Origin: an uncultured delta proteobacterium
GTDB lineage: Bacteria; Desulfobacterota; Desulfobacteria; Desulfobacterales; JAFDCJ01
Length of the DNA: 64,000 nucleotides
Assembly (NCBI GenBank): GCA_963769935.1
Contig: CAVYNY010000022.1
Span: 32,001-96,000, forward strand
Reading direction: 5' to 3'
The translations under genes and the position numbers were made by a program. Under the pieces are notes generated by a model, which did not search any database, was not told the origin of the DNA, and was given only the letters and a program-made list of their open reading frames with translations. Below are positions 159 through 42,050 of this stretch, piece by piece (the first letter of the stretch is position 1; every line of letters starts with the position of its first letter).

Positions 159-280
159 GGTGTCCTTCCTTCATTGGATGTAAAGGGATTTTTTAAAGGC
201 ATCATCCTGATCACCGGCTGTTTGCCTTTCAGCGGCCTGCAAAATCTTGCAAAAGGATGTCTACAGTCTTTTGGAAGATG

Positions 281-302
281 GAATACATGATTGAACCCAT
301 AT
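281..302 (+). promoter_or_regulatory. 22-bp regulon box upstream of kinase 606
   Basis: GAATACATGATTGAACCCATAT; half-site GTCTACAG at 259 (22 bp upstream). Confidence 0.65.
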
Positions 303-605
303 TGTTTTAAGTTGTTTTTTTTCCAAAAATTAATTAGATAAAGAAGAACAGGATGCCGGCCGGGAAAATGACGGCGTCCGAATAGGGCGAAAAGGCAATC
401 CGGAAAGTGCCGCAGATAAAGACAGGCAAGAGAGTCACCAATTCGAATATGTACACGAGCTTTTCATATAATCAGATCGCCTGATTCAAAGGAACGGTGC
501 AATGGGCCATAAGAAAATGGTCCTTTTAATCGTTGCTGACAATAAGGCGATCCGGGCGATTAACGCATTCTGGCAATTGGCCAGGGTTCCGGAGGACACA
601 ATCAG

Positions 606-1907
606 ATGCCGGATAAAGCTAAGCCGCTGCATATTCTTCTGATCGAAGACAACGAGCACGACCGCATTGCCTTTCAGCGGGTTATAGAAAAGGAATGCGT
701 CGGTTGCGATCTTACGGTCTGTGAACGGGCTGAAGAAGCCGAGCACCTGCTGAAGCGTGCCGACAACGCCTTTGACATAGTGGTGCTGGATTATGATTTG
801 CCCGGCATGAATGGGCTGGATTTTTTTAAGATGGTGCGTCGGCAGCAGAATTTGCCGCCGTTTGTGATGCTGACCGGGGCAGGCTCGGAGAGACTTGCCG
901 TGAAATCACTCCAGGCGGGGATTCATGATTATGTGGTCAAGGACACCGGCTTGGGGTATCTAAATCTGCTGCCGGTGGTTTTGACCGGGGCAGTGCGCCG
1001 GCACACAAATGACCTGGCGCGTCAGGCCGCTGAAGCGGCTTTGAAAAGAGCCCACGCTGAGCTGGAGTCTAAAGTTCGCGAACGAACCGCCGACTTGGCC
1101 CTGACGGTTCAAGCGCTGGAAATTGAAATTGAAGAACGTCGTCAAACCGAGGCTGCGCTGCGCCAATCCCAAAATCAGCTGCGTAAATTATCGCAAAAGA
1201 TCCTGGATTCGCAGGAAAACGAGCGCAAACTGATCTCCCAGGAAATCCACGACAGTATCAGCGGCAGCCTGGCAGCCATCAAGCTGGCGCTGGAAGAAAA
1301 ACTCGCCTCCATGGGACGAAAGCCGGCCGCAAATGTAATTTCGCTGGAGAAAATTCTTTCCCACATCGAGGAAATCATTGTAGAATCCCGCAGGATTTCG
1401 GCGCATCTGCGTCCATCCCTGCTGGATGATCTGGGATTATTGGCAACCATAGACTGGCTCGGCCGTGAATTTGAGCAACTGCATCCGAATTTAAGAATTG
1501 AGCAGCAGCTGGATATAACGGAAGACCAAATTCCTGAAATGTTGAAAGTGGTGATCTACCGTGTGCTGCAGGAAGCGATGAACAATGTGGCCAAACACAG
1601 TGGCGCTACCAGAGTTCGCCTGCTGTTAGCGGCCCGGAATAATCGCATAGAGCTTACCGTTGCGGATAACGGCTGTGGATTCGATCCCGCAGAAATAAAA
1701 TCTTCCGAGTCATCGGCGGTCAGCGGATTCGGTTTGTCAGGCATGGTGGATCGCACCCAACTTTGCGACGGGAAGTTTAAGATTTCTTCGGAAAAGGGGA
1801 AGGGCACGACGGTACACATCTCTTTGCCGTGCGGTCCTGATTCGATCGGCGGTTCGATGCCATCCCCTTCACCTGAAAACAATGCCGCACTCCGCAAGTC
1901 CGGATGA
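606..1907 (+). CDS. Cytoplasmic hybrid histidine kinase: REC + HisKA_3 + HATPase_c
   Basis: REC motifs LLIEDNEHD/VVLDYDLPGMNG; H-box ERKLISQEIHDSISG; N-box QEAMNNVAKHS; DNGCGF; no TM segment. Confidence 0.92.
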   Translation: MPDKAKPLHILLIEDNEHDRIAFQRVIEKECVGCDLTVCERAEEAEHLLKRADNAFDIVVLDYDLPGMNGLDFFKMVRRQQNLPPFVMLTGAGSERLAVKSLQAGIHDYVVKDTGLGYLNLLPVVLTGAVRRHTNDLARQAAEAALKRAHAELESKVRERTADLALTVQALEIEIEERRQTEAALRQSQNQLRKLSQKILDSQENERKLISQEIHDSISGSLAAIKLALEEKLASMGRKPAANVISLEKILSHIEEIIVESRRISAHLRPSLLDDLGLLATIDWLGREFEQLHPNLRIEQQLDITEDQIPEMLKVVIYRVLQEAMNNVAKHSGATRVRLLLAARNNRIELTVADNGCGFDPAEIKSSESSAVSGFGLSGMVDRTQLCDGKFKISSEKGKGTTVHISLPCGPDSIGGSMPSPSPENNAALRKSG

Positions 1908-2055
1908 CACCCGGCAACCTTGTTCAAGTCTGTCTGCGAAATGCGTAAATAGTCACTTTTTAGCCGATCGAAGACCTCTCCCCATTAACCTTTTTAAATT
2001 CTATAATTTAACTTTCTGATTCCGATTCAGCCAAAATACATTTATACCTCGTGGC

Positions 2056-2077
2056 AAATACGGGATTTCCCTTATTT
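2056..2077 (+). promoter_or_regulatory. 22-bp regulon box upstream of kinase 2321
   Basis: AAATACGGGATTTCCCTTATTT; half-site AAATACAT at 2034. Confidence 0.75.
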
Positions 2078-2320
2078 CCTCTAGTGCCGAGCCGATTAAT
2101 ATTTACAATTGAGCTTGCAGCAGCGCGGTATCGAAAATCCCGCCTGCCATGCAAGGCCTGCGCGGGCAGGTTGTCGACGATGTTGACGACTGCTTGGATT
2201 TATTGAAATCTATTCAAATGATTTTGCGATAATGGCGCTGCCCCAAAGTGGCCGCTTCTTCCAAGCGTTGTCCCGGAAGGAGCATAGAATTTTCCTAAAA
2301 GATTATTCGAAGAATCAGCC

Positions 2321-3508
2321 ATGGCCGATATTACCCATAGTTCCGCATCTTCACCGATCAACATTCTTTTGATCGAAGACAATGAACACGACCGGGCCGC
2401 ATTTGCAAGAGCACTGCGCAAGTCGGAAAAGGCCTTTAGAATATCGGTGTGTGAAAAGGCCGAAAATGCGCTGCATAAACTCACGGCAGGCAAGGTGGTA
2501 TATGATCTGGTTGTCGTGGATTATGATTTGCCGGGGATGACCGGCATGGAATTTTACCGTCGGCTGCGGCATATGAATAATCTGCCGCCGTTTGTAATGC
2601 TGACCGGGGCCGGTTCGGAAAATCTTGCGGTCGAAGCCTTGCAGGCCGGTATGTACGATTACATCATCAAGGATCAGGGGCAGGGTTATCTGAAACTGTT
2701 GCCCCTAAAACTGGCGAACATCAAACAGCGTAAAAACGAGCGCAAGACCGGGCGCAGGGCCCAGGTGGAACTGAAAAAAGCCCATGACGAGCTTGAGAAA
2801 CGCGTGGCGACCCGCACGACCGAGTTGCTGCAATCCCAGATGCGGCTGCGGCTGCTGTCGCGCGAGATATTGGAAGCCCAGGAAAACGAACGCAAACTGG
2901 TGGCCCGGGAGATTCACGACAGTATCTCCGGTGACCTGGCGGCCATTAAAATATGTCTGGAAGAAAGACTGCACAGGATGAAGGGCAGACCCCTGGACGG
3001 CACCATATCTTTAGAAAAAATAATCGCCACCATCGACGATACCATTCATGAAACCCGCCGCATTTCAGCCTATTTGCGGCCATCGACGCTCGATGATCTG
3101 GGACTGGTGTCGACAATTGGCTGGTTTTGCCGTAGATTCGAAAAATATCACCCGCAAATTCGCGTGGAGCGGCGATTCGAAATTGAAGAAAATGACATTC
3201 CCGAGCAATTGAAAGTTGTTGTTTACCGGATTCTGCAGGAGGCCATGCACAATGTGGCCAAACACAGTGAAGCCGATCGGGTGCAGGTAGGTTTAGTGAA
3301 ATTTGGAAACGCATTAAGATTGAGCATTCAGGACAACGGCAACGGATGTGGTTTGGATTTTGAGAAAATCAGTTCCCACCCGCACCTCATGAGCGGGTAC
3401 GGTCTGGCCAATATGCAGAATCGAGCTGAAATTTGCGGCGGGAGGCTTAAAATCGCATCAAAGCCGGGAGCGGGCACATCCATTCACCTGACGTTGCCGT
3501 GCAGCTGA
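2321..3508 (+). CDS. Cytoplasmic hybrid histidine kinase: REC + HisKA_3 + HATPase_c (paralog of 606..1907)
   Basis: Shares ILLIEDNEHDR, DYDLPGM, NLPPFVMLTGAGSE, EIHDSISG and QEAMHNVAKHS-type motifs with 606..1907. Confidence 0.92.
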   Translation: MADITHSSASSPINILLIEDNEHDRAAFARALRKSEKAFRISVCEKAENALHKLTAGKVVYDLVVVDYDLPGMTGMEFYRRLRHMNNLPPFVMLTGAGSENLAVEALQAGMYDYIIKDQGQGYLKLLPLKLANIKQRKNERKTGRRAQVELKKAHDELEKRVATRTTELLQSQMRLRLLSREILEAQENERKLVAREIHDSISGDLAAIKICLEERLHRMKGRPLDGTISLEKIIATIDDTIHETRRISAYLRPSTLDDLGLVSTIGWFCRRFEKYHPQIRVERRFEIEENDIPEQLKVVVYRILQEAMHNVAKHSEADRVQVGLVKFGNALRLSIQDNGNGCGLDFEKISSHPHLMSGYGLANMQNRAEICGGRLKIASKPGAGTSIHLTLPCS

Positions 3509-3538
3509 ATCGCACATGTCACAGGTACTTTGAGGTGT

Positions 3539-4204
3539 TCAGTCTTTTTTCGCCACCAGACCATGCTCGATGGCATACGCCGTCAAGGCAGCTGCATTGT
3601 GCAGATCCAGCTTGTTCATAATGTTGGCCCGGTGCTTTTCGACCGTTTTTACGCTGATATGCAGCATGTCGGAAATTCCTTTATTTTGAAAACCTTCTCC
3701 CAGCATCTTTAGAACCTCTTTTTCCCGCTGGGTGATGGTGTCCCATGCTGTTTTGGATTTCAGCTTTTTGCGGCCGGTCATGTAGCCTTCCAGCACGTTT
3801 TCCGAAATCGACGGGCTGATATACCGTTTTCCCTGCAGCACGCTCTCGACGGCCACCATCAACTCACTGCGTCCGGCATCTTTCAGACAATAGCCGTCGG
3901 CACCGGCCTCAAATGCCTCCAGCACGTATTGGTCGGATTCATGGATGGTCAGCGCCATAATTTTTATTTCCGGAAATTGATTTTTGATTTCCTTCATTAC
4001 GGAGATACCGTTCATTTTGGGCATGGAAAGGTCCAGCAGCAAAAGATCCGGCCGGCATTTCTTGACAGTTCGGATCGCTTCAAGACCATCCCCGGCTTCT
4101 CCGATCACCTCCAGGTCGGCCTTGTCTGAAAGCAGTGATTTTAAACCTTCCCGGAACAGCTTGTGATCTTCCACAATGACGATTTTTGTTTTACCTTCGA
4201 TCAT
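3539..4204 (-). CDS. NarL/LuxR-family DNA-binding response regulator
   Basis: REC (IVIVEDHKLFREGL, LLDLSMPKMNG) + LuxR HTH (ITQREKEVL..ISVKTVEKHRANIMNKL). Confidence 0.95.
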   Translation of the reverse strand: MIEGKTKIVIVEDHKLFREGLKSLLSDKADLEVIGEAGDGLEAIRTVKKCRPDLLLLDLSMPKMNGISVMKEIKNQFPEIKIMALTIHESDQYVLEAFEAGADGYCLKDAGRSELMVAVESVLQGKRYISPSISENVLEGYMTGRKKLKSKTAWDTITQREKEVLKMLGEGFQNKGISDMLHISVKTVEKHRANIMNKLDLHNAAALTAYAIEHGLVAKKD

Positions 4205-4535: not shown

Positions 4536-4557
4536 CAATGGGGTATACAATGTAGTT
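4536..4557 (-). promoter_or_regulatory. 22-bp regulon box upstream of NarL-type regulator
   Basis: Minus strand AACTACATTGTATACCCCATTG; half-site AAATACTG 22 bp upstream (4558-4579); weaker plus-strand box at 4567-4588. Confidence 0.6.
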
Positions 4558-4727
4558 GCGGGATAACTGGACAGTATTTAACTTATTTCCACAATGGTTA
4601 GCTGCGATCGGACTTGACGGAATAAATTTCGATTTTTAGTTTAGATCATAGTTAGGCAGTAATCCCAATCCTTCCTTAAATTGACCCAAATTTGGGCGGG
4701 AGGAATTTTAAAACACAAGGAGCATCC

Positions 4728-5072
4728 ATGATCGAGCAATATCAGGAAGGCAGCTATCTAAAAATAGACGGCACCCAGTATTTCAACGATCTAAAAATTA
4801 TTGACGGACGGGTGAAGGGGCGCTGGTGGCGAAGCCAAGGCCATCGGCTGCAGATTGAAGACATCTTTGATATTTTAGCTGCCAAACCGGAAATATTTGT
4901 TATCGGAACGGGGTATGCCGGCAATATGCGCGTGCCGGATGATGTCCGGTCCGACCTTGAACATAAAGACATCGGCGTCGTAACGGCTGACACCGCCCAC
5001 GCAATTGAGATCTTCAACCGGCTGTATGCGGAAGGCAAGCACGTCGCCGGAGCGTTTCACCTGACCTGTTAG
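4728..5072 (+). CDS. Mth938-like (DUF498) protein
   Basis: AAGGAG RBS; PEIFVIGTG..G.M and C-terminal AGAFHLTC typical of family. Confidence 0.85.
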   Translation: MIEQYQEGSYLKIDGTQYFNDLKIIDGRVKGRWWRSQGHRLQIEDIFDILAAKPEIFVIGTGYAGNMRVPDDVRSDLEHKDIGVVTADTAHAIEIFNRLYAEGKHVAGAFHLTC

Positions 5073-5482
5073 ATTGATTTTTTCATTTCCAATACATTTT
5101 TGCATTCACGGTAGTCATAGCTGACGTCATCCATCAACTTTCTGACCAAATGAATGCCGAGGCCGCCGATGTTGCAGTTTTCAAGATCATCATAGGTCAG
5201 CTCCGGTTCCGCGACGTTGAGGGGATTAAATGGCCGGCCGCTGTCTTCGACCCGCAGCACCAATGCTCCGTTAACCTGCGGTATGGCGCTGATTTTGATA
5301 AAATGATCTTGACAGTCCCTATAGGCATAGGCGATAATATTGGAAACGACCTCTTCCAATACAAGATTCGTTTCAACAATATACTTTTTCGAAAGGCGTA
5401 ATTTCCGTCCCAGTTTTTCAATGAACCTGTGAAGTTTGTCCAGCTCAGCCATATCGTTTCTGAGTTTTAATACCTCTTTCAT
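5069..5482 (-). CDS. RsbW-type anti-sigma factor / Ser-Thr kinase (HATPase_c_2)
   Basis: LEEVVSNIIAYAY, EDSGRPFNPL, GGLGIHLVRKLMDDVSY. Confidence 0.88.
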   Translation of the reverse strand: MKEVLKLRNDMAELDKLHRFIEKLGRKLRLSKKYIVETNLVLEEVVSNIIAYAYRDCQDHFIKISAIPQVNGALVLRVEDSGRPFNPLNVAEPELTYDDLENCNIGGLGIHLVRKLMDDVSYDYRECKNVLEMKKSI

Positions 5483-5591: not shown

Positions 5592-5781
5592 TTGACCGCC
5601 GGCGCAAGTATTTCTCGCCCTTAGACTATAGACCAAGCCTTGAGCCCGGCCGGCAGGTGACATTTACGATTCATGATTTTGCTGCAATGGAGCAACGACA
5701 GCGTTGAATCAGGCTTCGATATTCCGGCCCCGCGGTTTGCCTTCTGATCCGCACGACTGAAATACTGCCTGAAACCGTCAA

Positions 5782-5803
5782 GGATACATTCTATCCTTTA
5801 TTG
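5782..5803 (+). promoter_or_regulatory. 22-bp regulon box upstream of PAS kinase
   Basis: GGATACATTCTATCCTTTATTG; half-site AAATACTG at 5760. Confidence 0.6.
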
Positions 5804-5999: not shown

Positions 6000-8021
6000 A
6001 TGAAAAAACATATCGGCAGCCCCTCAAAATCGTCCGCTTCACCAAGAATCAAACGGAAGGATGGAATTACAGTTCAGGATGTGGACACCCCGGCAGCTCG
6101 ACGTCCGGTTGCGCATTCGGCGGCGGAGGCTGTCTCCGGGGTCGGGGTCGGCTCTTTCAAGCACAAGATCCTGGCGTCGTCCCTAAACGGCATATATATC
6201 TACAACCTGGCGACCGGCCTCAGCACCTTCATCAATCCCCAGTACACCCGCCTGACGGGTTACACCCTTGAGAATCTTCAGGCTTTGAAGGGCGCGGGAT
6301 TATTCGCATTGGTTCACCCGGAAGATCAAGAACGGACGGCCGCCCACAGGGAGCGTATCGGCCGGGCCGGCGATGATGAAACCTTGGAGATCGAATACCG
6401 TTTCAAACGCGCCGACGGACGCTGGATGTGGTGTTTGTCAAAAGAGGCTGTCTTCGAGCGCGACGGGCAAGGTCACGTGCTCCGGGTTATCGGCGCCTTC
6501 CTGGACATCACCGACCGCAAGACGAGCAATACAAAACTGCAACACGAGCGCGAGCTGCTGCAAAAGATCATTGACACGATTCCGATAATGATCAGCATTT
6601 ACGATCCGGACTTGCGGCGCTTCAGCTTCAACAACGAATTCCGGCGCACTCTGGGCTGGTCGGAACATGACCTGAAGGGCGGCGATGCGATGCAAAAATT
6701 TTATGCCGACCCCTCCGAGCGCGAGGCAGCGCGGCAGTTCATGGAATCCCTGGAAACCGGCTGGCAGACCTTTAAGGTGACTGCCAGGGACGGCGGCACC
6801 GTCGAAAGCTCGTGGGCCAATATTCGCCTGTCCGACGATACCCGGATCGGTGTCGGCATCGATGTCCGGGAACGCACGGCCCAGCTGAAAGCAACCGTGG
6901 CAGCCCTGGAAAACGAAATGCGGGTCCGCAAAGACTTGGAGAATAAACTTCGGCAGTGGTCGCGGGTATTCATGGACGCGGCTGATCCGATCATCATCGA
7001 GAACCTTTCCGGCACCATCATCGATATGAACCGGGAGGCGGAAAGAAAATTCGGATGGAAGCGTCAAGAGTTGATCGGCAAATCCATGCGCAGCCTGATC
7101 CCTCCCTCCGGGTATCAAAAGGCGGAGAGCCTGCGCGAACGCTGTCGCCGCGGTGAGGAGGTGCGAAGCTGGGAGGCTATTCGGCAGGACCAGAAGGGAC
7201 TGATTTTTTCGGTGCTGCTGACCGCTTTTCCCCTGTTGGATGAGTCCGGAAATATCATATCCGTGGCGACCATTGCCAAGGACATTACCTTGCGCAAGCA
7301 GATGGAAAGGGAGCTGGCAAAATCCCACAAGCATCTTCAGGAGTTGTCGCGCAAGAGCATCGAAGCCTTGGAAAACGACCGCCGGACCACCGCCAAGGAA
7401 CTGCACGACCGTATCGGCGCCAGCCTGGCGGCCATTAAATTCAGGCTGGAGGAGATTGTCGAGCAGATTGTCCAAAAGCCGAAAAAAGCGGCCGCTTCCC
7501 TCGACGAAACGGTTTCCAACCTGCAGACCGTCATCAAGGAGACCAAACAGATTGCGGCCCAATTGCGGCCCACCATACTCGATGACCTGGGTCTTTTGTC
7601 CACCATCAGCTGGCTTACGAGACAATTCTTAGAACAGTTCAGCGGTATTAAATTGAATTCGCAAATTGAGGTCCGGGAAGAAGATATCCCGGATACGCTC
7701 AAAATCGTCATATATCGCGTGCTGCAGGAATCCCTGCATAATGCCGCCAAACATAGTGAGGCCACCGAAGTTAACATCCGCCTGGATAGCGAAGCTGATC
7801 GCATTGTGCTTGAAGTTGCCGACAACGGCCGCGGCTTTGATGTCCAGAATACACTCAGCTGCGAGGATCCCCTCAGCGGGTTCGGTCTGGCGGGCATGAT
7901 AGAGCGCGCCGAGATTGTCGGTGGCTCCCTTACGATCGATTCTTCTTTCGGAAACGGTACGCACATCAAAATGACGCTCAACCCGGAGCCTTATAACGCC
8001 AAATTGTCGAACTCAGCCTGA
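6000..8021 (+). CDS. Cytoplasmic multi-PAS sensor histidine kinase (HisKA_3)
   Basis: Three PAS/PAC repeats (VHPED..EYRFKRADGRWMW; ..DITLRK); H-box ELHDRIGASL; QESLHNAAKHS; DNGRGF. Confidence 0.92.
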   Translation: MKKHIGSPSKSSASPRIKRKDGITVQDVDTPAARRPVAHSAAEAVSGVGVGSFKHKILASSLNGIYIYNLATGLSTFINPQYTRLTGYTLENLQALKGAGLFALVHPEDQERTAAHRERIGRAGDDETLEIEYRFKRADGRWMWCLSKEAVFERDGQGHVLRVIGAFLDITDRKTSNTKLQHERELLQKIIDTIPIMISIYDPDLRRFSFNNEFRRTLGWSEHDLKGGDAMQKFYADPSEREAARQFMESLETGWQTFKVTARDGGTVESSWANIRLSDDTRIGVGIDVRERTAQLKATVAALENEMRVRKDLENKLRQWSRVFMDAADPIIIENLSGTIIDMNREAERKFGWKRQELIGKSMRSLIPPSGYQKAESLRERCRRGEEVRSWEAIRQDQKGLIFSVLLTAFPLLDESGNIISVATIAKDITLRKQMERELAKSHKHLQELSRKSIEALENDRRTTAKELHDRIGASLAAIKFRLEEIVEQIVQKPKKAAASLDETVSNLQTVIKETKQIAAQLRPTILDDLGLLSTISWLTRQFLEQFSGIKLNSQIEVREEDIPDTLKIVIYRVLQESLHNAAKHSEATEVNIRLDSEADRIVLEVADNGRGFDVQNTLSCEDPLSGFGLAGMIERAEIVGGSLTIDSSFGNGTHIKMTLNPEPYNAKLSNSA

Positions 8022-8367: not shown

Positions 8368-9138
8368 TCATTCCCGGGTGTCCTCGGGTGTCAGTTCATC
8401 CGGCGGCGTCATCGGTACGTTGTCCGACAGGGAGGTGTAGGCATCCACCTGCTCATCCTCACCGTCCATCATGATATCTTTTTCAAGCTTTTCCGATATG
8501 GGCGCGGGAGTCCGTTCCCGGCGTTCCCAAGGCTGGCGGTCGATTTTTATATCGTCAACGGTTTCGTCGAAGTCCAGTTTGTCGTTGATGATTTCGAGCA
8601 ATATTTCATGCTCCGCATTGCTGGGAAGCACGCCGCTCAGGTATACGACACCGTCCTCGCAGGTGATGTCGAGTTCCTCCATATCCACCCGACCGTCCTC
8701 CTGCAGCGCATCATGAATGGTTTCCTGCATATCATCGTCGGTCAGCGCTTCTTTGTCCAGCGAGACCGCAGGCGACTCAATTCCTCCTTGGGCAAAAGAT
8801 TCCCTCATGCCGGCACACGGAACACAGTATCTGGCCCAGGGTACCACCTGCAGACGCTTGACGGAAATGGGCCTGCGGCAGGCTTCGCATTGGCCGTATC
8901 TGCCTTCATCCATTTTAGTCAGGGCATGGTCGATTGCGCGAAGCTCAGCCTGACCCCGTTCATCCAGCTGCGCCAATTCGCGGGACAGGGTTTCCTTGCT
9001 GGCGGTTTCTTCGAGCTCTTTTTCCGGCTCGTGCAGGGCCTCCCAGGAGGTATTGACCGTGCGCCGAAACTCAAAGATGTCCCTGCGGCGATCCAGCAAA
9101 TTTTCCCTGAGCGCCCTGATGTCTTTTTTGCTTAGCAT
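8368..9138 (-). CDS. TraR/DksA C4 zinc-finger protein fused to BON-like domain
   Basis: Coiled coil + YGQCEAC..RL.VVPWARYCVPC; then IHDALQEDGRVD..ITCEDGVVYLSG BON-like segment; GGAGG RBS. Confidence 0.82.
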   Translation of the reverse strand: MLSKKDIRALRENLLDRRRDIFEFRRTVNTSWEALHEPEKELEETASKETLSRELAQLDERGQAELRAIDHALTKMDEGRYGQCEACRRPISVKRLQVVPWARYCVPCAGMRESFAQGGIESPAVSLDKEALTDDDMQETIHDALQEDGRVDMEELDITCEDGVVYLSGVLPSNAEHEILLEIINDKLDFDETVDDIKIDRQPWERRERTPAPISEKLEKDIMMDGEDEQVDAYTSLSDNVPMTPPDELTPEDTRE

Positions 9139-9280: not shown

Positions 9281-9302
9281 AAATGGGGTCAATCCGGTAT
9301 TT
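9281..9302 (-). promoter_or_regulatory. 22-bp regulon box upstream of DksA-BON gene
   Basis: Minus strand AAATACCGGATTGACCCCATTT; half-site CAATACTG at 9303-9324. Confidence 0.8.
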
Positions 9303-9328
9303 CCTCCACCCTTCGACAGTATTGAAGG

Positions 9329-10617: not shown

Positions 10618-11620
10618 TTAGAGGAGTTCCGATACCTGTACCAATAGATCCAGATTCTTGGCAATAAAAATCAATTCGGCGTTTTCCACCTGAGCATGAC
10701 GCGTTTGAATCCATGATTCGAATGCATTTTGATCCAGGGCCGGGTGGCCTTTAAGTTCAGTGTGGATCGTATCGAGGATAAAATGCAGGAAATAGGGTTC
10801 ATCGGCGGGATATCCTCCCGACTCGGGCAAAACGATCCAATCAGAGCCGCCGGCCGCCAGGACGGCGGCATCCGCAGCCCGGAGGCGGTCGAATAGATTG
10901 CGGCCGGTGTGACAGCCGCCGGTTTTGCGGCCGTCGGTAATGCGCTCATCCATGCTTTGGTTGTACAATTGCAGGATCAGCCTATCAAAGGCAGGGTTCT
11001 AATTCCGGCAGGAAAATGGTTTCACCGTCATAGTTCAGCGTCAGGTACAATAAACCGCCCGGTCGTATGAAATTGATGAATTGACGCAGCACTACGTCGA
11101 TATCGATCAAATCCATAAATGCATGGGCAATGCCCAAATCCCACTGCCGCCCGCAATTTTCACCTGACAAAAAGTGATACACATCGGCCTGCATAAATTT
11201 GATCCATATTTCGCCTTCTTGAGTTCGAATAAGGGTGGTGTTTTCCGAACGGGGACTGAAGCCGAAGCCTCCGGCGGCAGCCCAGCGCCCCAGTTGCCGG
11301 CGGGATTCACCGACACTGACTGCATCCGAGTCAACTGCCGTGTAGTCTGCGAAGATTAAAAGTTTCCAATCAACCAACCGTTCGATCATCGTCCCGATTC
11401 CGGCACCCAATTCCAAAACGCTCAATCGGTTTGCGTGTCTGCTTTTGGGCAAAGCTGCGGCCAGCGTCTCCCGGACATGTTCATTCAACGCACGATCATC
11501 CACGCTCTTCTTGGATGACAGGTAGCGTATAAAACGTTGTCCGTTTATAGTCGACACGGTAAATTTCACCTCAGCGAGCCCCAGACGATATGAGCCTGAG
11601 GCTCGTTCCTGATTTGTCAT
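10618..11620 (-). pseudogene. Class I SAM-dependent methyltransferase split by a +1 frameshift near 10995 (pseudogene or sequencing error)
   Basis: RYLSSKKSVDDRALN, VLELGAGIGTM; removing one C from GAACCCTGCC joins ..PELEPAFDRLILQLYNQSMDER.. Confidence 0.75.
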
Positions 11621-11693
11621 TGAACACGGTCATGTTTGGCATGAAATGGAACTGCCCTGATTGGCCTAAAATAAAATGGGTGTCGAAAATATT

Positions 11694-11715
11694 GTATGGG
11701 GTGAAGACTGTATTT
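11694..11715 (-). promoter_or_regulatory. 22-bp regulon box upstream of methyltransferase
   Basis: Minus strand AAATACAGTCTTCACCCCATAC; TATTTT 20 nt downstream. Confidence 0.7.
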
Positions 11716-13453: not shown

Positions 13454-13535
13454 AATGGTTTAGAACGTTTAGATCGTTTAGATGGTTGATGGTTGGGACT
13501 GTCGTAATGAGCCCAACGTTCTAAACGATTCCAAC
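13454..13535. repeat. 9-mer ATCGTTTAG/ATGGTTTAG tandem array with inverted arm
   Basis: ATGGTTTAGAACGTTTAGATCGTTTAGATGGTTG...AACGTTCTAAACGAT. Confidence 0.65.
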
Positions 13536-13578: not shown

Positions 13579-13600
13579 AAATACAGGATTCACCTTATTT
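13579..13600 (+). promoter_or_regulatory. 22-bp regulon box upstream of STAS-like gene
   Basis: AAATACAGGATTCACCTTATTT; TACCTT 20 nt downstream. Confidence 0.8.
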
Positions 13601-13713
13601 ACTGCCGGGAGTCAAGGGTTTACCTTGCTAAAAAAAGAATCATTCTTTTTGATTGAACTCCCTTGAAGCGCGCCGGTTATCGTGCTTTGACAAGGGCCGG
13701 AAAAGGAGGTGCG

Positions 13714-13992
13714 ATGGCCTGCAATTTTAATATTTCGGTAGCCAAAGCCGGAGATCATGTCTGCTTGAAGCTGAATGGAGACTTCGACGGCAGTTCGGCC
13801 TGCGAGCTGGTAAACATGCTGAATGGCGGTGCGCTGTTCAACTCCCCAAAAATCCTGGTAGATACGGATTCGCTCAAGAATGTGTACCCCTTTGGTTTGA
13901 ATATCCTGCACAGTCGGCTGCATAAAGCAAAATCAAGGATGGTTCCGCTGGTTTTCACCGGGAAGATGTCGGAGCGATTCGCAGCGGGATGA
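13714..13992 (+). CDS. Small STAS-like (anti-anti-sigma-like) protein
   Basis: AGGAGG RBS; LKLNGDFDGSSACEL..ILVDTDSL..VYPFG. Confidence 0.7.
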   Translation: MACNFNISVAKAGDHVCLKLNGDFDGSSACELVNMLNGGALFNSPKILVDTDSLKNVYPFGLNILHSRLHKAKSRMVPLVFTGKMSERFAAG

Positions 13993-14170: not shown

Positions 14171-16594
<2,424 letters not shown>

Positions 16595-17220: not shown

Positions 17221-17273
17221 GTTGGCCTCCTTCTAGCTTTTTTACAGAGAATATGCCTGAAACATATCGCTTA

Positions 17274-17295
17274 AAATGGGGTATATCCGGTATTC
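17274..17295 (-). promoter_or_regulatory. 22-bp regulon box upstream of CBS gene
   Basis: Minus strand GAATACCGGATATACCCCATTT; TATTCT 20 nt downstream; half-site CTGTACAT 22 bp upstream. Confidence 0.8.
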
Positions 17296-17331
17296 TTCAG
17301 ACTGTTATCATGTACAGTATTGGATAATGCG

Positions 17332-17353
17332 AAATACAGGGTTGAACCTATTT
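17332..17353 (+). promoter_or_regulatory. 22-bp regulon box upstream of 17423 gene
   Basis: AAATACAGGGTTGAACCTATTT; TAGGTT 20 nt downstream; half-site ATGTACAG at 17310. Confidence 0.78.
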
Positions 17354-17422
17354 ACTTTGCCATGTTGAGCCAATAGGTTGTTATTTATTCGCACACTTGT
17401 ATAGAAAAGGAGTGAAATCATC

Positions 17423-18613: not shown

Positions 18614-18635
18614 CAATAGAGTGAATCCTGTATTT
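18614..18635 (-). promoter_or_regulatory. 22-bp regulon box upstream of 18480 gene
   Basis: Minus strand AAATACAGGATTCACTCTATTG; TCGTACG half-site 22 bp upstream. Confidence 0.75.
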
Positions 18636-18756
18636 TACCGACAATTATAACGTACGAGGGCTTCTCCGGTGATACCGCGCAGGTGAACGTTGTTGTGAAT
18701 TACCAAGCCGTTATGAAGCGCGGTCGGGTACGCAGCAGATTTAATGCCCGATCCGT

Positions 18757-19938: not shown

Positions 19939-20094
19939 AATTTTTTCTCCTTTCTATTCCTGCGGTGATCCAAGGCACCGTTTCCTTTACCCAAGATTTT
20001 CAGGATCAAGGCAAGCGCTCCGGCCGGGTTTGAAAACCGTTGGAAACCGGGTGTTCCCTGCCTAACACTATTCTAATTCAGGTCATTTAAGAAA

Positions 20095-20116
20095 AAATAG
20101 GGTTTATAATGTATTT
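20095..20116 (-). promoter_or_regulatory. 22-bp regulon box upstream of citrate synthase
   Basis: Minus strand AAATACATTATAAACCCTATTT; TAGAAT 19 nt downstream; GTATACAG half-site 22 bp upstream. Confidence 0.72.
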
Positions 20117-20200
20117 TGCCATTGAGGGGGCTGTATACATAATAAAAGCATCGGTGATAAGGGGCTAGAGATCGCTTCGCATACCGGAAATTTTGACTGC

Positions 20201-20222
20201 AAATAGGTGATTTACCCCATTG
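20201..20222 (+). promoter_or_regulatory. 22-bp regulon box upstream of UDPGP remnant / YcbK gene
   Basis: AAATAGGTGATTTACCCCATTG; half-site GCATACCG at 20179. Confidence 0.65.
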
Positions 20223-25437: not shown

Positions 25438-25617
25438 TTTTGCCGTCCACGGCCAAGCCTTACATTTTTCTTCAGTTCAGCCACTAAGGGTTCACCTCCG
25501 GCGGATCAGGCCTACCTCTAGTGAAGCTCCTCCCGCACAAATTGAAATGACTAAAAATCCTGTTGACTGAAAATCAAACTCAAAATGTAATAAAAAAATA
25601 GCCTCTCAAATCCCGGC

Positions 25618-25639
25618 AAATACACGATAGACCCCATAG
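25618..25639 (+). promoter_or_regulatory. 22-bp regulon box upstream of coiled-coil/DUF1328 genes
   Basis: AAATACACGATAGACCCCATAG; TAAATT 20 nt downstream; AAATAG half-site at 25596. Confidence 0.75.
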
Positions 25640-25769
25640 AAAATTATCCCGACGGAAATTAAATTATTTTTTGATCCGAATAAACCAATAACCAAATGTT
25701 TAACCTGCATTTGTCGTTCTTGTCGTTCTTTTTCCAATACAGTGCAAATCGAAAAAAAAGGAGGAAAAT

Positions 25770-26616: not shown

Positions 26617-26625
26617 TCTGGAAAT

Positions 26626-27327
26626 ATGAAAACAAACATCCATCAAATTGAGGAATTACGCGAGCAGCGGCACATCTTCGCCGACCGCTTTGAGGCCGGC
26701 GAGACGCTCGCTGCGATGCTGCAGGCGGAGTACGCGCACATCCCCGGGGGAATGGTTCTGGCGATTCCATCCGGCGGGATTCCGGTAGGATTAAAGGTCA
26801 GTGAGATATTGGGACTGCCGCTTGATCTTCTGATCGTGAGGAAATTGCAGATACCGGGCAACCCTGAAGCCGGTTTCGGGGCGATGACGCTGGATGGGAC
26901 GACGTTCTTTAATCAAGCTCTTTTGGCGCAGCTGCATTTGAGCGCCGCTCAGATCGAGGCCGAAAAGCAGCGGGTCAATCTGGCGCTCGAAAAGCGCAAC
27001 ACACTGTTTCGCGGCGGCCGTCCCTTTCCCGATCTGGCCGGGAAAAAGATCATCCTGGTGGATGACGGTCTGGCCTCGGGTTTTACCATGCTGGCATCGA
27101 TTGATATGGCCAAAAAGGCCAAAGCCTGTGAAACGATTGTGGCGGTTCCTACGGCCCCGCAACATTCGGTTGAGCGCATCTTATCGGGAGTGGACCGAAT
27201 ATACTGTGCCAACATTACAACCGGCCCCTACTTTGCCGTCGCCGAGGCCTATCAAAATTGGTACGATCTGAACGAGGAAGAAGTCCTCGCTCTTCTGAAA
27301 AACAGGCAGTCGGCTCGACCCGGATGA
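26626..27327 (+). CDS. Phosphoribosyltransferase family protein
   Basis: FADRFEAG, LAIPSGGIPVG, VRKLQIPGNPEAGFGA, ILVDDGLASGFTM. Confidence 0.88.
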   Translation: MKTNIHQIEELREQRHIFADRFEAGETLAAMLQAEYAHIPGGMVLAIPSGGIPVGLKVSEILGLPLDLLIVRKLQIPGNPEAGFGAMTLDGTTFFNQALLAQLHLSAAQIEAEKQRVNLALEKRNTLFRGGRPFPDLAGKKIILVDDGLASGFTMLASIDMAKKAKACETIVAVPTAPQHSVERILSGVDRIYCANITTGPYFAVAEAYQNWYDLNEEEVLALLKNRQSARPG

Positions 27328-28120: not shown

Positions 28121-28308
28121 CAGAAAACCGGTCATGCCGAAATGCAGGCAAAGGTTCAATATGCAATAGGTTCAAGTATGTATTTCGCTGATCATTCGAC
28201 CTTATCTAATTGTTCCGCCATGAAAATAAATTATACGGGGCGCTGATTAAGCCGCCTCTTTTAAGGCGGCAGCTAATGTTTAAGCCAAATACAGTCTGAA
28301 TCTCCTAA

Positions 28309-28330
28309 ATGTACATGTTTGACCGGATTT
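28309..28330 (+). promoter_or_regulatory. 22-bp regulon box upstream of 28410 gene
   Basis: ATGTACATGTTTGACCGGATTT; AAATACAG half-site at 28287; TATACT exactly 20 nt downstream. Confidence 0.7.
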
Positions 28331-28409
28331 CAATTACAACATCGGAATCGTATACTAAGCCTAATTTGTAAAATCAGGTGATATCCCAACGATATGAAAG
28401 GAGGCAGTT

Positions 28410-28781
28410 ATGCCGGATCGCATGGGTATGCTCAATAAGATCAAAGAAGGGATGAAAGTCTACGACAACACCGGGGACGAGGTCGGCACGGTTGAGTTCC
28501 TCCATTTCAGTGAAGCCAACGGCGACGGACATGCCGTCGCAGCGGCACCGCCGGAGCAGTCCACTCAGTCGGACCTGGTAGATTTTGTAAGGAAAATGTT
28601 CGGGGCCGACAATCTGCCCCGGGAACTGCGCGAGCGGCTGCTGATGCACGGCTTCATCAGGGTGGACAGCGCCAAGCTGTTCGGACCCGACCGTTACGTC
28701 ATGTTCGATCAAATCGCCCGCGTAGAGACAAATGGCGTGCATCTTAGGGTGGAGGATGCTCAAAATCTGTTGAAGGCCTAA
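28410..28781 (+). CDS. PRC-barrel-like (DUF2171-type) hypothetical protein
   Basis: AGGAGG RBS; IKEGMKVYDNTGDEVGTVE..GFIRVD..DRYV. Confidence 0.78.
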   Translation: MPDRMGMLNKIKEGMKVYDNTGDEVGTVEFLHFSEANGDGHAVAAAPPEQSTQSDLVDFVRKMFGADNLPRELRERLLMHGFIRVDSAKLFGPDRYVMFDQIARVETNGVHLRVEDAQNLLKA

Positions 28782-29731: not shown

Positions 29732-29806
29732 TTATATCTCCCCGCCACAGGTGAATCTGCGGGGGATAATTCCCTCATGCTCAAATTCCGGGCTGGTGAT
29801 CCTCAT
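29732..29806 (-). pseudogene. N-terminal stub of YbhB/YbcL (PEBP) family protein
   Basis: GGAGGA RBS; MRITSPEFEHEGIIPRRFTC.GE, continuing INPPL after a frameshift, then lost. Confidence 0.7.
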
Positions 29807-29880
29807 TGCATTTCCTCCTCCAGGCGGCGGGCACCCGCCAAAATTGCTTAAGTTTAAGGTGTTTTCCGCTGCGAAACTGT

Positions 29881-30325
29881 TCAGTTCATGGCCTGCAAAT
29901 TGCTGATGATATAGTCCAGGTGGATCTTTTCCTCGCTGAAATATGTCCGAAGTGCTTCCTTTACCTCCGGCGGCGCTTCCCATGAAACCACTTCGCCGTA
30001 ATAGCGGTTGGTGATTTCTTCGGTGGTCCTCATGGCTTTCAGGGCGCCTTTCAAACCGGTGAAAGCTGCGGATCGCCGCAAAGGCCTCGATGACATACCC
30101 TTTGAAATCCTGTGATGGCTCAGGCGGCTGCCCGCCCAGGTTCGCGATATGTTCGGCCAGACCGCTGATGTGATTGCGGTGCTCTTCCTGGAATTTCATC
30201 AGACGCTCTTTTATGATGGGGTCATCGAGTTCCTTGATGGCCTGGTCGTAGGCATGGACTGCATCGATGTCCAACTGGACGAGATTCGATATCGCTTTGA
30301 TTAGATCTTTTTCATTTTCTTTCAT
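29881..30325 (-). pseudogene. Ferritin-like (DUF2383-type) protein with one +1 frameshift near 30062
   Basis: LVQLDIDAVHAYDQAI..F..EH..H..L; removing one T from AGCTTTCACC gives SFTGLKGALKAMRTTEE..EEKIHL. Confidence 0.8.
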
Positions 30326-30406
30326 TTCTCAGTTTCCTTGTCAGTTTCAACTCAGAATTCCTTATACATCTTATTCAAAGAAAATAGTGAACTGCCGGTC
30401 GCCGAA

Positions 30407-30428
30407 CAATAAGGTAAAGCCTGTATTT
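30407..30428 (-). promoter_or_regulatory. 22-bp regulon box upstream of ferritin-like gene
   Basis: Minus strand AAATACAGGCTTTACCTTATTG; TATTTT 20 nt downstream; GAATACAT half-site at 30429-30450. Confidence 0.8.
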
Positions 30429-30791
30429 ACTGGAGTGATTCGATGTATTCAGATAGGCCTTAGGTATTGAAATTCGGGTTCAGCCCCTATGAGGTCAACT
30501 AAATAATGAACCCCTGAACCCGAAACCCTGAACCTGAATGCGGCGGATCCGACGAGTGTTTGTGATTGGCTTCCCGCTCACAGTCAGCCTTTAATATTGA
30601 TACTCCTTGTTTAGAAGCGTCCTGAAAGTAATTTTTTGGTGAGTTCGGCGTTTTACTCTCTTTGAGAGCCTGATTCGGAACCTATTGTCGTCGTTTGACA
30701 AAAGCCGTATTTTTCAATACAAGTGTAACGTAATCGTATTCTTCGCTTTTTCAATGGCTTTCTACCAAAAGGCTTTCAAACAAAATTTGCT

Positions 30792-33439: not shown

Positions 33440-33687
33440 CAAATTTGACGCAAATTCAATTGGATGTTTTTCGGGATAGGCGGATTGGGGTTTGCCGAGC
33501 AGTTCATCTTCACTGCCTCCGAATATCACCGCCAGACGCTGTTCCCATGGAACTTTTTCCTCGGTGCCGTCCTGGATGTGCAGCGTGCGATTAGTCCACC
33601 GGGTCTCAAACTGCAGATCGTCAAAATCCGCGCAAATTCTGAAAAATATCGGGTTATCCATGATAAAATACTTGATTTTTTGAATGA

Positions 33688-33709
33688 TTATACTTTCCCA
33701 GACCTATTC
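33688..33709 (+). promoter_or_regulatory. 22-bp regulon box upstream of EAL-like gene
   Basis: TTATACTTTCCCAGACCTATTC; AAATACTT half-site at 33666; TAAATT 20 nt downstream. Confidence 0.55.
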
Positions 33710-33780
33710 TTTTGCGGCGCAGGCGTGATTAAATTAAAGATAGACCAAGTGTTAAGATCTTTAGGAGAAGAAATCTGATT

Positions 33781-35960: not shown

Positions 35961-36063
35961 TTGAAAATGTCCTTCCTGTGGGTCATGCTTTCTTGAGATC
36001 ATCTTTCTTTAGTAAGAAGCTAGTGCATCGGTATTGTTTTGCAATAGGGTATAACGGCACTCA

Positions 36064-36085
36064 AAATACACGATCGACCCTATTT
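36064..36085 (+). promoter_or_regulatory. 22-bp regulon box in divergent TIGR01777/PRC-barrel promoter region
   Basis: AAATACACGATCGACCCTATTT, with adjacent block 36042-36063 (minus-strand right half ACCCTATTG). Confidence 0.72.
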
Positions 36086-37432: not shown

Positions 37433-37515
37433 GAAGAAATCACATCCAATGAAACAATCCAGTCGATCTGATTCAACCTGAGTTAAGAGATTCCTGTCCA
37501 AACGATTCCAAGGAT

Positions 37516-39310: not shown

Positions 39311-39332
39311 AAATAGATTATTCACTCCATTT
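39311..39332 (+). promoter_or_regulatory. 22-bp regulon box upstream of DUF5752-treT
   Basis: AAATAGATTATTCACTCCATTT. Confidence 0.6.
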
Positions 39333-40245: not shown

Positions 40246-40247
40246 AC

Positions 40248-41486
40248 ATGACTGAATTGCTTGACCAATATGCCCCCATTGTCGGGGCGAACGTCATCGA
40301 TCATCTGCGCCAGTTGGCCGAACCTCTCAAAGGAATGAAAGTGATGCATGTAAATTCCACGCGCGAGGGGGGCGGAGTGGCCGAAATACTTCACCGCCTG
40401 ATACCCCTGAAGCAGGAACTGGGATTGGATGCGACCTGGGAGATCGTTGCCGGGGATTCACAGTTTTATCAGTGCACCAAAAAGATGCACAACGCCCTGC
40501 AGGGCGATCGTGTCGGCATTTCGAGCGAACTGCTGCAACACTATGAAGCTGTTAATGCCGATAATTTTGAAAGATTGAAAGCTCTCTTGCAGGAGGCGGA
40601 TATTGTCATTATTCATGACCCCCAGCCGGCCCCCTTGTTGAAATACTGCCGGGCCCGCAAGGGCAAATGGATCTGGCGCTGTCATATCGATGCCAGCCGG
40701 CCATTTCGTCCGGTGTGGAAGCATTTGCAAAATTTTATCAGCGATTACGACGCCAGCATCTATTCGCTGCCCGCCTTTGCCCAGCCCATGCCCCATTCGC
40801 TTTACATCATTCCTCCCAGCATTGATCCGCTGAGTGAAAAAAACGTTGCGCTCGATAGGGCAGAAATTCAGGGAGTCGGCAATAGCTATGGCCTCGATCC
40901 CGAGCGGCCGATCATCTCTCAGATTTCCCGTTTTGACCGGTTCAAAGATCCCGTCGGTGTGATCCGGGCCTACCGGATGGCCAAGTCCTTCGGTCCGCCG
41001 CTGCAGCTGATCCTGGCCGGTGGAACCGCCACCGATGACCCTGAAGGCGAGGAGGTCCTGGCTGAAGTCACGGCCGCGGCTCAGGATGATCCGGATATTC
41101 ATGTGCTGATGCTGCCGCCGGATGCCCATCGCACCATCAATGCCATCCAGCGATTATCCACAATTGTCGTGCAGAAATCACTCAAGGAAGGGTTCGGGCT
41201 GACCGTCACCGAGGCACTGTGGAAAGGCAAGCCGGTTATCGGGGGGGATGCCGGCGGAATTCGGCTGCAGGTAGTCAACCACCAAACGGGTTTTCTGGTG
41301 AATACGGCCGAGGGGGCCGCTCTGAGAATCCGTTATTTGCTGAAACACCGTGATCGCCTGCAGGAAATGGGAGAGACGGCCAGAACCTTTGTGCTGGAAA
41401 ATTATCTGCTGACCCGCCACCTCAGAGAATACCTGACGCTGATGCTTGCGGTCATCAGAAACAGCAGCGATAGAATCGAGCTTTAG
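40248..41486 (+). CDS. treT: Trehalose glycosyltransferring synthase (GT4)
   Basis: HVNSTREGGGVAEIL, IHDPQP, WIWRCHID, PSIDPLSEKN, SRFDRFKD, EGFGLTVTEALWK. Confidence 0.88.
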   Translation: MTELLDQYAPIVGANVIDHLRQLAEPLKGMKVMHVNSTREGGGVAEILHRLIPLKQELGLDATWEIVAGDSQFYQCTKKMHNALQGDRVGISSELLQHYEAVNADNFERLKALLQEADIVIIHDPQPAPLLKYCRARKGKWIWRCHIDASRPFRPVWKHLQNFISDYDASIYSLPAFAQPMPHSLYIIPPSIDPLSEKNVALDRAEIQGVGNSYGLDPERPIISQISRFDRFKDPVGVIRAYRMAKSFGPPLQLILAGGTATDDPEGEEVLAEVTAAAQDDPDIHVLMLPPDAHRTINAIQRLSTIVVQKSLKEGFGLTVTEALWKGKPVIGGDAGGIRLQVVNHQTGFLVNTAEGAALRIRYLLKHRDRLQEMGETARTFVLENYLLTRHLREYLTLMLAVIRNSSDRIEL

Positions 41487-41489
41487 TTC

Positions 41490-41850
41490 TGAGGTTCAGA
41501 TAAAGAAGCTCATAGCTGATAGCTCCCCGGTTAAATCCGCTTCGCCCCGGTTAAACAGGAAAAAAGGTTTAACTGGGCAGGCTGATCCATTGATATTTAA
41601 CGGGGTAAACATAGCTCATAGTTAAAAAACGCCGCAGAACGTCGAATCTCGAAGGAGGAATCATAATTCAACCTCCGTCGGCTTTGATTGAGAGCTAATA
41701 TCAAATAACTTCTACCCCCCTCCTATCTTCTATCTGTTATCCCTTTCCCACCCTCCCACCTTCTTACCCTCTCACCTTCCCACCTTCCCATCTTCCCACC
41801 CTCTGCCCCTTGCCCTTTGCCCTCTGTCTTCTGTATTCTGACACCTTATC
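41490..41850 (-). repeat. Mosaic intergenic repeat family, copy B, with nested palindromic insertion
   Basis: Reverse complement of 41611-41750 aligns with 51470-51626 and 54308-54434. Confidence 0.8.
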
Positions 41851-41918
41851 TTCTGCAACGATCTAAACGATCTAAACCATCCAAACCATTCCCCCAAAAT
41901 ACATATTCACAATTCCGC

Positions 41919-41940
41919 AAATACAGGATGGATAGTATTT
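41919..41940 (+). promoter_or_regulatory. 22-bp regulon box upstream of glgE operon
   Basis: AAATACAGGATGGATAGTATTT; AAATACAT half-site at 41897; TAGATT 19 nt downstream. Confidence 0.68.
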
Positions 41941-42050
41941 ACCCATTTAGATTAATGCTTAGATTAAAAAATGATCATCTTTAATATTCATAAATTAAAT
42001 CTAAAATTCTTGTATCCACAAATTTCGAAAACACAGATTAAGGACTCAGA

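What the first reader, a model, noticed from the sequence alone, without database searches (positions are those of the whole stretch)
259..41965. Fixed promoter architecture: half-site, 22 bp, full box, ~20 nt, -10 hexamer
Seen: 17 of the 20 boxes have a TAC/TAG half-site in the same register exactly 22 bp upstream (259, 2034, 4558, 5592, 5760, 9303, 17296, 17310, 18636, 20117, 20179, 25596, 28287, 30429, 33666, 36042, 41897). Many have a TAnnnT hexamer 19-20 nt downstream (TATACT 28351, TAAATT 25660 and 33730, TAGATT 41960, TAGGTT 17374, TACCTT 13621; on the minus strand TATTCT, TATTTT, TAGAAT). In the divergent 17220-17423 spacer one TGTACA palindrome supplies the half-site for both boxes. 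Inference: two dimers bind cooperatively about two helical turns apart, with the main box centred near -43. That is class II activation overlapping the -35 element of a sigma70-type promoter.
Basis: partly seen in the sequence, partly recalled or inferred. Interest (0 to 1): 0.7.

Follow-up and report, generated by a model that had tools for sequence, protein, structure and literature searches.

The report
Tandem-site stress regulon promoter, Desulfobacterota
A fixed three-part DNA signal sits in front of about sixty genes, many of them stress and sugar-storage genes, in this sediment bacterium and recurs across its phylum; it is most likely the docking site of a two-component activator, a new example of a switch design already known from tuberculosis bacteria.

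Summary
A matrix trained only on the window's 22-bp box finds 43 non-coding boxes elsewhere in the genome; 29 carry TA[CG] exactly 22 bp upstream (background 1.7%) and 17 carry TAnnnT 19-20 nt downstream. In other orders of the phylum the figures are 27/40 and 26/40. The spacing puts the box centre at about -43.5 and the upstream unit at -65.5; only one arm of the upstream unit is conserved. The likely reader is a NarL/SsrB-type response regulator (window 3539-4204 and/or its paralog): the box tracks this clade across genomes, lies beside its gene, and its right arm matches the published SsrB half-site. DosR (sites at -42.5/-63.5) and NarL (-43.5) are the precedents. Binding, cooperativity and start sites are inferred, not shown; some lineages keep the box but mostly lack the half-site. 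I found no description of this motif in my searches. Earlier scan notes report regulons of the same kind, in other lineages. New member of a known kind.

The parts
259..302 (+). upstream half-site unit (259-280, TAC) + box (281-302) before REC-HisKA_3 kinase 606-1907
2034..2102 (+). half-site, box 2056-2077, TAATAT at 2097 (gap 19) before REC-HisKA_3 kinase 2321-3508
3539..4204 (-). NarL/LuxR-family response regulator (REC + GerE HTH, helix TVEKHRAN); candidate reader of the box
606..1907 (+). REC-HisKA_3-HATPase hybrid kinase, H-box intact; candidate partner
2321..3508 (+). REC-HisKA_3-HATPase hybrid kinase, H-box intact; candidate partner
6000..8021 (+). PAS-HisKA_3-HATPase kinase, H-box intact; candidate partner
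4536..4579 (-). box 4536-4557 + half-site unit 4558-4579, 332 nt before the regulator gene (candidate autoregulation); no TAnnnT at gap 19-20
   Evidence: same site in close orthologs L004/L059
5570..5613 (-). box + half-site before RsbW-like gene 5069-5482
5760..5803 (+). strong half-site but weak box (9.1 bits) before PAS kinase; doubtful member
9281..9324 (-). box + half-site before DksA-like gene 8368-9138
11668..11715 (-). box 11694-11715 without half-site, TATTTT at gap 20, before gene 10985-11620
13579..13626 (+). strong box without half-site, TACCTT at 13621, before STAS-like gene
17248..17317 (-). half-site unit 17296-17317, box 17274-17295, TATTCT at gap 20, before CBS gene 16804-17220
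17310..17379 (+). half-site unit 17310-17331 (shares TGTACA 17311-17316 with the - strand unit), box 17332-17353, TAGGTT at 17374, before gene 17423-17731
18614..18657 (-). box + half-site
20070..20138 (-). half-site, box 20095-20116, TAGAAT at gap 19, before citrate synthase 18757-19938
20179..20222 (+). half-site + box 20201-20222
25596..25665 (+). half-site (TAG), box 25618-25639, TAAATT at 25660, before sll1863-family stress gene 25770-26069
28164..28207 (-). box 28164-28185 with TAA in the half-site position
28287..28356 (+). half-site, box 28309-28330, TATACT at 28351, before gene 28410-28781
   Evidence: same site in G008
30381..30450 (-). half-site, box 30407-30428, TATTTT at gap 20, before DUF2383 ferritin-like gene 29732-30325
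33666..33735 (+). strong half-site and TAAATT at gap 20 but box fails the matrix (-4.0 bits); doubtful member
36042..36085 (+). half-site unit (TAG) + box 36064-36085 before PRC-barrel gene; read on - the half-site is the intact right arm of a decayed box for the divergent epimerase gene
39311..39332 (+). box without half-site before DUF5752-treT genes
41897..41965 (+). half-site, box 41919-41940, TAGATT at 41960, before the glgE-treS-glgB gene run starting at 42051

Best explanation
The element is a fixed promoter module that is most likely read by a phosphorylated NarL/SsrB-type response regulator, which would bind as a dimer at about -43.5 next to the -35 element of a sigma70-type promoter and would be helped by a second, weakly specific copy two helical turns upstream. 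Shown: a 22-bp imperfect palindrome (AAATAC-A-K-G-A-T-T-N-ACCC-Y-ATT-K), an ATAC half-site exactly 22 bp upstream followed by a T-rich tract, and a -10 hexamer 20 (or 19) nt downstream, at some 60 sites in front of stress, trehalose/glycogen and respiration genes.
For: Held-out spacing: 29/43 half-sites (p about 1e-41) and 17/43 -10 hexamers (p about 1e-13) outside the window. 22-bp composite pattern: 106 matches in 26 of 41 genomes; 19-bp control: 4 matches in 4 of 41. Other orders: 27/40 and 25/40 at gap 20. -35 signal outside the trained matrix: base after the box is A in 40/63, whereas the mirror position would give T. Regulator link: 47 boxes in 36 of 80 loci around orthologs (2 with the reversed matrix), about 95 per Mb against 8 per Mb in G000 outside the window; box present in 23/64 genomes with the clade and 7/87 without in the order, 18/49 and 9/202 in the phylum, reversed-pattern background 7/151 and 8/251. 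Closest solved DNA-binding domains are EsrB and SsrB; the SsrB half-site mCCyTA and its 7-4-7 layout match the right arm and length of the box (PMC2837388; EsrB motif). Precedent: DosR sites at -42.5/-63.5 need helical phase, NarL at -43.5. A conserved non-coding unit behind a box begins 33-35 nt after the box end in the rows I counted, as the predicted +1 requires.
Against: No binding, footprint or start-site data; the three RNA runs are contigs only. Most genomes with the regulator clade show no match to the strict pattern (41/64, 31/49). Kin are not independent, and only 19 and 11 candidates per genome were scored. G001, G002, G014 and G021 carry boxes but no member of the clade was found in them (77-93% complete). 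The two arms differ systematically (left TACA[GT]G, right read back T[AG]GGGT), which a plain homodimer does not explain. 18/63 sites lack the half-site and G139, G101, G156 have it at 1 of 15 sites. G at box position 22 is common in G000 (20/63) but rare in other orders (1/40). The window regulator and its paralog cannot be told apart from sequence.
Confidence: 0.68

Rival explanations
1. The box is the regulator's dimer site, but the upstream ATAC plus T-rich tract is not a second cooperative dimer site: it serves an independent contact such as the polymerase alpha C-terminal domain, a lone subunit, or DNA bending.
For: Right arm of the upstream unit is not conserved (A at unit position 19 in 12/63 against 63/63 in the box) and positions -68 to -62 are T-rich; NarL works at yeaR with one dimer and alphaCTD.
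Against: The conserved upstream letters copy the box's left arm base for base; the spacing is a single value with no -33 or -44 alternative, which suggests protein-protein contact; boxes without the half-site are slightly stronger (26.2 vs 23.9 bits, p=0.09; weak).
Confidence: 0.15
2. A different or heteromeric regulator reads the box, for example the TVENHRAN-helix regulator (G000:C15:79156) or a heterodimer, which would explain the unequal arms.
For: Arm asymmetry; boxes in four genomes where the TVEKHRAN clade was not found, three of which have the TVENHR type.
Against: No box >=16 bits in the eight fetched loci (six distinct genes) of the TVENHR type; four misses among 22 genomes of 77-97% completeness are about what incompleteness gives; 10 of 11 phylum-sample genomes with two or more boxes have the clade.
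Confidence: 0.1
3. The right arm (CCCCAT-like) is the -10 element of an alternative sigma factor such as RpoH, or the whole module is a special promoter for the genome's second RpoD-like sigma.
For: The genome has an RpoH and a second 532-aa RpoD-like protein; the arm resembles the sigma32 -10 element (recalled).
Against: No conserved -35-like columns 13-17 nt before the arm; a separate TAnnnT lies 20 nt further on in four data sets; the conserved non-coding unit starts at +33 to +35, not about +7. Use of the second RpoD-like sigma together with the activator is not excluded.
Confidence: 0.04
4. The regulator represses rather than activates, by covering the -35 region.
For: The box flank overlaps the -35 hexamer.
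Against: Repressor sites usually vary in position (established knowledge); here the distance to the -10 is fixed and the -35 and -10 matches are weak, as at activator-dependent promoters; -43.5 is the activating position of NarL and DosR.
Confidence: 0.03

Closest known systems
DosR/DevR regulon promoters, Mycobacterium tuberculosis (PMC3177182, passages and section 16; PMC13486717, abstract and section 6)
   Same: NarL-family regulator; strong site near -43 plus a degenerate in-phase site two turns upstream (-42.5/-63.5 at tgs1); sites shared by divergent promoters; stress-type targets.
   Different: Here 22 bp rather than 21; the second site keeps one arm only; it is missing from about 30% of sites, while every DosR promoter has two or more boxes; different motif and phylum; the regulator is only a distant relative (E=1.5e-31).
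SsrB (Salmonella) and EsrB (Edwardsiella) 7-4-7 sites (PMC2837388, passages; PMC6592360, one passage)
   Same: Closest solved DNA-binding domains and best NCBIfam model (PRK15369, 195 bits); 18-bp 7-4-7 layout; half-site mCCyTA equals the right arm here; tolerance of one degenerate arm.
   Different: Score is below the family cut-off (242); SsrB sites have no strict distance to the start site, while here the distance is fixed; targets are stress and storage genes, kinases are cytoplasmic HisKA_3 types.
E. coli NarL at yeaR and ogt (PMC10853779, passages; PMC7419079, abstract and section 11)
   Same: Dimer site centred at -43.5 just upstream of the -35; TAC...GTA-type arms 10 bp apart; tandem sites at ogt.
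   Different: ogt's second site is a full site at -77.5 (or -67.5 engineered), not a half-site at -65.5; inner bases and recognition helix differ; P0001 scores 151 against a NarL cut-off of 250.
B. subtilis ComA inverted repeat plus 'half-site' RE3 (PMC4797271, passages); CrbR ACTU motif (PMC5715377, passages); LiaR extended sites (PMC4482077, abstract)
   Same: NarL-family regulators with an inverted repeat and an extra half-site or secondary site.
   Different: ComA's extra element lies downstream and is half of an 11-bp-period direct repeat; here it lies upstream and no repeat at -11 is enriched (3/48).

Membership tests
NarL/FixJ-family activator promoters | Regulator with REC + GerE domains and intact phospho-acceptor pocket, with HisKA_3 kinases | tested here: met
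NarL/FixJ-family activator promoters | Inverted-repeat site of 16-18 bp | tested here: met
   imperfect, with unequal inner arms
NarL/FixJ-family activator promoters | Direct binding of the regulator to the site | not testable with these tools
   only co-occurrence and proximity
Class II-position activation | Site centred near -41 to -44, abutting or overlapping the -35 of a sigma70-type promoter | tested here: met
   by spacing to the -10 hexamer, -43.5; start sites not mapped
Class II-position activation | Contacts with sigma region 4 / alphaNTD / alphaCTD | not testable with these tools
   NarL lacks the sigma4 contact, DosR has it
DosR-type tandem-site architecture | Second, weaker site in helical phase directly upstream | tested here: met
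   45/63 in G000, 27/40 in other orders
DosR-type tandem-site architecture | Second site present at every promoter | tested here: not met
   18/63 lack TA[CG] (5 of them have TAA); 1/15 in three genomes; very degenerate sites would be missed
DosR-type tandem-site architecture | Cooperative, phase-dependent binding | not testable with these tools
   needs footprinting
DosR / NarL / SsrB orthologs | Score above the curated family cut-off | tested here: not met
   below cut-off for all 25 NCBIfam models shown
ComA-type inverted + direct repeat | Direct-repeat partner 11 bp from the extra half-site | tested here: not met
sigma32 promoter | Conserved -35 element 13-17 nt before the CCCCAT-like arm | tested here: not met
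   spacing recalled

The most novel reading that the evidence does not exclude
This regulator clade is the general-stress switch of a large part of Desulfobacterota, doing with an activator the job RpoS, SigB or EcfG do elsewhere. A small core regulon (khpA, formate dehydrogenase, a small RNA with an exposed anti-Shine-Dalgarno stretch) was expanded to some 60 promoters in lineages that gained the island with its second regulator copy and three kinases, and the one-and-a-half-site operator with unequal arms reflects a tetramer or heteromer geometry not yet described for this family.
Probability: 0.3. Interest if true: 0.62.

Novelty: new member of a known kind. Interest (0 to 1): 0.4.

Why it matters
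How sulfate-reducer relatives of sediments control their general stress response is poorly described; my literature searches found no account of this motif or regulator clade. The work gives a motif, about 60 target promoters in one genome, a named candidate regulator and exact predicted start sites, all testable in E. coli or in vitro. The promoter design itself is known from DosR and NarL, so a specialist would find it useful rather than surprising.

Tried and rejected
RNA evidence: three metatranscriptome runs of one study hold small shares (0.08-0.15) of the stretch and are contigs only; they show neither start sites nor strand. Rfam: no real match in the 6 loci scanned, four of them with the candidate small RNA. 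Covariation of the small RNA: none useful, the stems are almost invariant. NreC as closest motif: the original paper is not held, two searches found nothing usable and a review gives no letters, so I dropped it. Desulfovibrio DAP-chip paper (PMC3333781, passages): motifs are in figures and supplements that I did not see, so a match there is not excluded. sigma32 promoter, ComA-type direct repeat, a third site at -33 or -44, and a mirror half-site downstream were tested on column counts and not supported. A first regular expression for recognition helices was wrong and was redone. No structure or complex prediction was run: dimer scores for this family would not identify the DNA site. Rows dropped: 5 of 68 genome hits at >=18 bits lay in long ORFs and were removed before the logo. 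In one search I used 60 sites from the 12 genomes with several matches, not all matches.
Full report
Setting. The window is G000:C22:32001-96000 of an 8.0-Mb genome whose close relatives are recorded as Desulfobacterales or uncultured delta proteobacteria. Its first 42 kb hold three HisKA_3 kinases, a NarL/LuxR-type response regulator (3539-4204, P0001), RsbW-like and STAS-like genes, two DksA-like genes, CBS, PfpI, Slp, PRC-barrel, sll1863-family, ferritin-like and TreT genes; the rest is a glycogen/trehalose gene run.

Observation. All 17 half-site coordinates, the listed -10 hexamers and TGTACA are as stated. To avoid circularity I built a matrix from 18 window boxes alone (22 bp, no flanks) and scanned the genome. 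Outside the window, 30 of 48 boxes at >=18 bits have TA[CG] at -22, with 0-3 at each other offset; TAnnnT peaks at gap 20 (12) and 19 (6). After removing 5 hits in long ORFs, 63 sites remain (20 in the window): 45/63 have the half-site; outside the window 29/43 against a 1.7% background, and 17/43 have the -10 against 1.9% per position. The refined matrix finds 66 genome sites at >=18 bits against 3 for the reversed matrix.

Anatomy. Columns outside the trained box show T-A at 21-22 nt after the box end (A in 45/63) and T five bases later, i.e. a -10 hexamer. A 20-nt gap makes the box's terminal TTK plus three further bases a -35 hexamer with a 17-bp spacer; the base after the box is A in 40/63, while the mirror position at the other end would predict T. 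The box thus spans about -54 to -33, centre -43.5, and the upstream unit -76 to -55, centre -65.5. The upstream unit keeps A-T-A-C (43, 57, 52, 42 of 63) and a T-rich tract, but nothing of the right arm: it is a true half-site. The box arms differ: left TACA[GT]G, right read back T[AG]GGGT; the half-site copies the left arm. This asymmetry is unexplained. In the 17220-17423 spacer the two TAC half-sites share the central TA of TGTACA on opposite strands; two subunits are unlikely to sit there at once (inference). At 36042-36063 the half-site is also the right arm of a decayed minus-strand box for the divergent epimerase gene, whose paralog at C25:1460 keeps an intact box, recalling DosR's shared divergent sites.

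Conservation. A composite pattern with 22-bp spacing gives 106 matches in 26 of 41 genomes; the same pattern at 19 bp gives 4 in 4. Around 80 orthologs of P0001, 47 boxes occur in 36 loci (reversed matrix: 2); 19/47 have the half-site and 21/47 the -10 at gap 20. For 40 boxes from 8 genomes of other orders, chosen by the box alone, 27 have the half-site at -22 (2 at -21, 1 at -23) and 25 the -10 at gap 20. For 20 boxes from 4 other families of the order only 3 have the half-site but 11 keep the -10. So box-to--10 distance is the constant part and the half-site is common but lineage-dependent.

Which protein. G000 has 12 GerE matches; two regulators share the helix TVEKHRAN (P0001 and C11:383792) and both have a box with half-site beside them. 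A strict box pattern occurs in 23/64 order genomes with this clade and 7/87 without (reversed control 7/151; Fisher p=3e-5, overstated because kin are not independent), and in 18/49 against 9/202 in a phylum sample (control 8/251) (genome overlaps counted by me from the tables). Genus members with 84-90% orthologs of P0001 (G008, G013, G022) have 11, 18 and 6 composite sites, the other 19 have 0-4; G010 has a partial 89% ortholog and 2 sites. The nearest solved DNA-binding domains are EsrB and SsrB, and SsrB's published half-site mCCyTA and 7-4-7 layout match the right arm and length of the box. Against: four genus genomes have boxes without a detected clade member, and most clade-bearing genomes lack the strict pattern. 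P0001 is below the cut-off of every named family shown.

Targets. Of 20 genes outside the window that I scanned, 18 had Pfam matches, among them trehalose-phosphate synthase/phosphatase, a GH15 trehalase-like enzyme, Usp, two aldo-keto reductases, cytochrome c oxidase subunit II, NuoA- and NuoF-like subunits and KhpA. Sites shared across the genus lie before khpA, a formate dehydrogenase-like twin-arginine gene (named from the sequence, not scanned) and a short non-coding unit. That unit is conserved in 11 genus genomes, folds into a hairpin, a C/U-rich linker and a terminator, and its conserved part begins 33-35 nt after the box end in the three rows I counted, a rough independent check on the predicted +1. 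Among the 5 largest of 10 sigma70 matches, I found RpoD, a second RpoD-like protein, RpoH and FliA, and none above the RpoS or SigB cut-offs; the ECF-sized ones were not typed.

Comparison. DosR uses a primary site at -42.5 and a degenerate secondary site at -63.5, and 5-bp insertions abolish secondary binding; its activation complex was built with the box at -43.5. NarL activates yeaR from -43.5 without touching sigma region 4 and ogt from -44.5 with -77.5. ComA, CrbR and LiaR give further cases of extra or imperfect sites. The design is therefore known; the motif, regulator clade and phylum were not found in searches (open-access library only; supplements of PMC3333781 not seen). Earlier scan notes describe comparable regulons in other lineages, none near this place or on look-alike DNA; their motif letters were partly withheld, so identity with one of them is not excluded.

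Verdict. The architecture is real and conserved across Desulfobacterota. Activation by a NarL/SsrB-type regulator at -43.5 is likely; cooperative use of the half-site is plausible but untested. New member of a known kind; interest 0.4.

Noticed in passing
G000:C18 about 323590-323666, - strand (L051:2090-2167; L187-L197): Candidate small RNA of about 75 nt behind a box with half-site, conserved in 11 of 23 genus genomes: 5' hairpin, single-stranded CUCUCC stretch complementary to a Shine-Dalgarno sequence, intrinsic terminator; convergent on xdhC genes; no Rfam match.
   Followed up: partly
G000:C13:541359 (-) and L024, L025, L027, L030, L034-L036, L038, L041: The KH-domain gene khpA has the full box-plus-half-site promoter in many genus members, hinting at a link to RNA-based control.
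   Followed up: partly
L026, L029, L033, L037, L043, L049: The same promoter module precedes a twin-arginine formate dehydrogenase-like gene divergent from a metK-like gene in six genus genomes.
   Followed up: no
window 5069-5482 and 13663-13992: RsbW-like and STAS-like genes, each behind a box, in a genome where no SigB-type sigma passed the cut-off among the five scanned; their partner is unknown.
   Followed up: partly
G000:C13:431031-432629 (L199): A second RpoD-like sigma factor of 532 aa, below the RpoD cut-off.
   Followed up: no
window 14547-15437, 20460-20747, 25172-25570, 26470-27327, 29732-30325, 51846-54170: Several genes are fragments or split (PPDK piece, UDPGP piece, cation efflux piece, ligase-OB piece fused to a phosphoribosyltransferase, GH57 in two frames); contigs of three RNA runs lack one base at 30065, so some breaks may be assembly errors or strain differences.
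   Followed up: no
L072, L075: Strong boxes next to orthologs of the regulator in records labelled Gammaproteobacteria and Hyphomicrobiales, suggesting spread outside the phylum or mis-binning.
   Followed up: no
window 21502-22557: DisA-type diadenylate cyclase inside the stress island.
   Followed up: no
G020:C34:322914-323532 (L139): The regulator paralog is split in this genome although its core boxes are kept.
   Followed up: no
window about 41830-41880: Short tandem repeats of about 9 nt in an intergenic stretch just before the 41897 half-site; similar letters appear as loose ends near 13455-13487.
   Followed up: no
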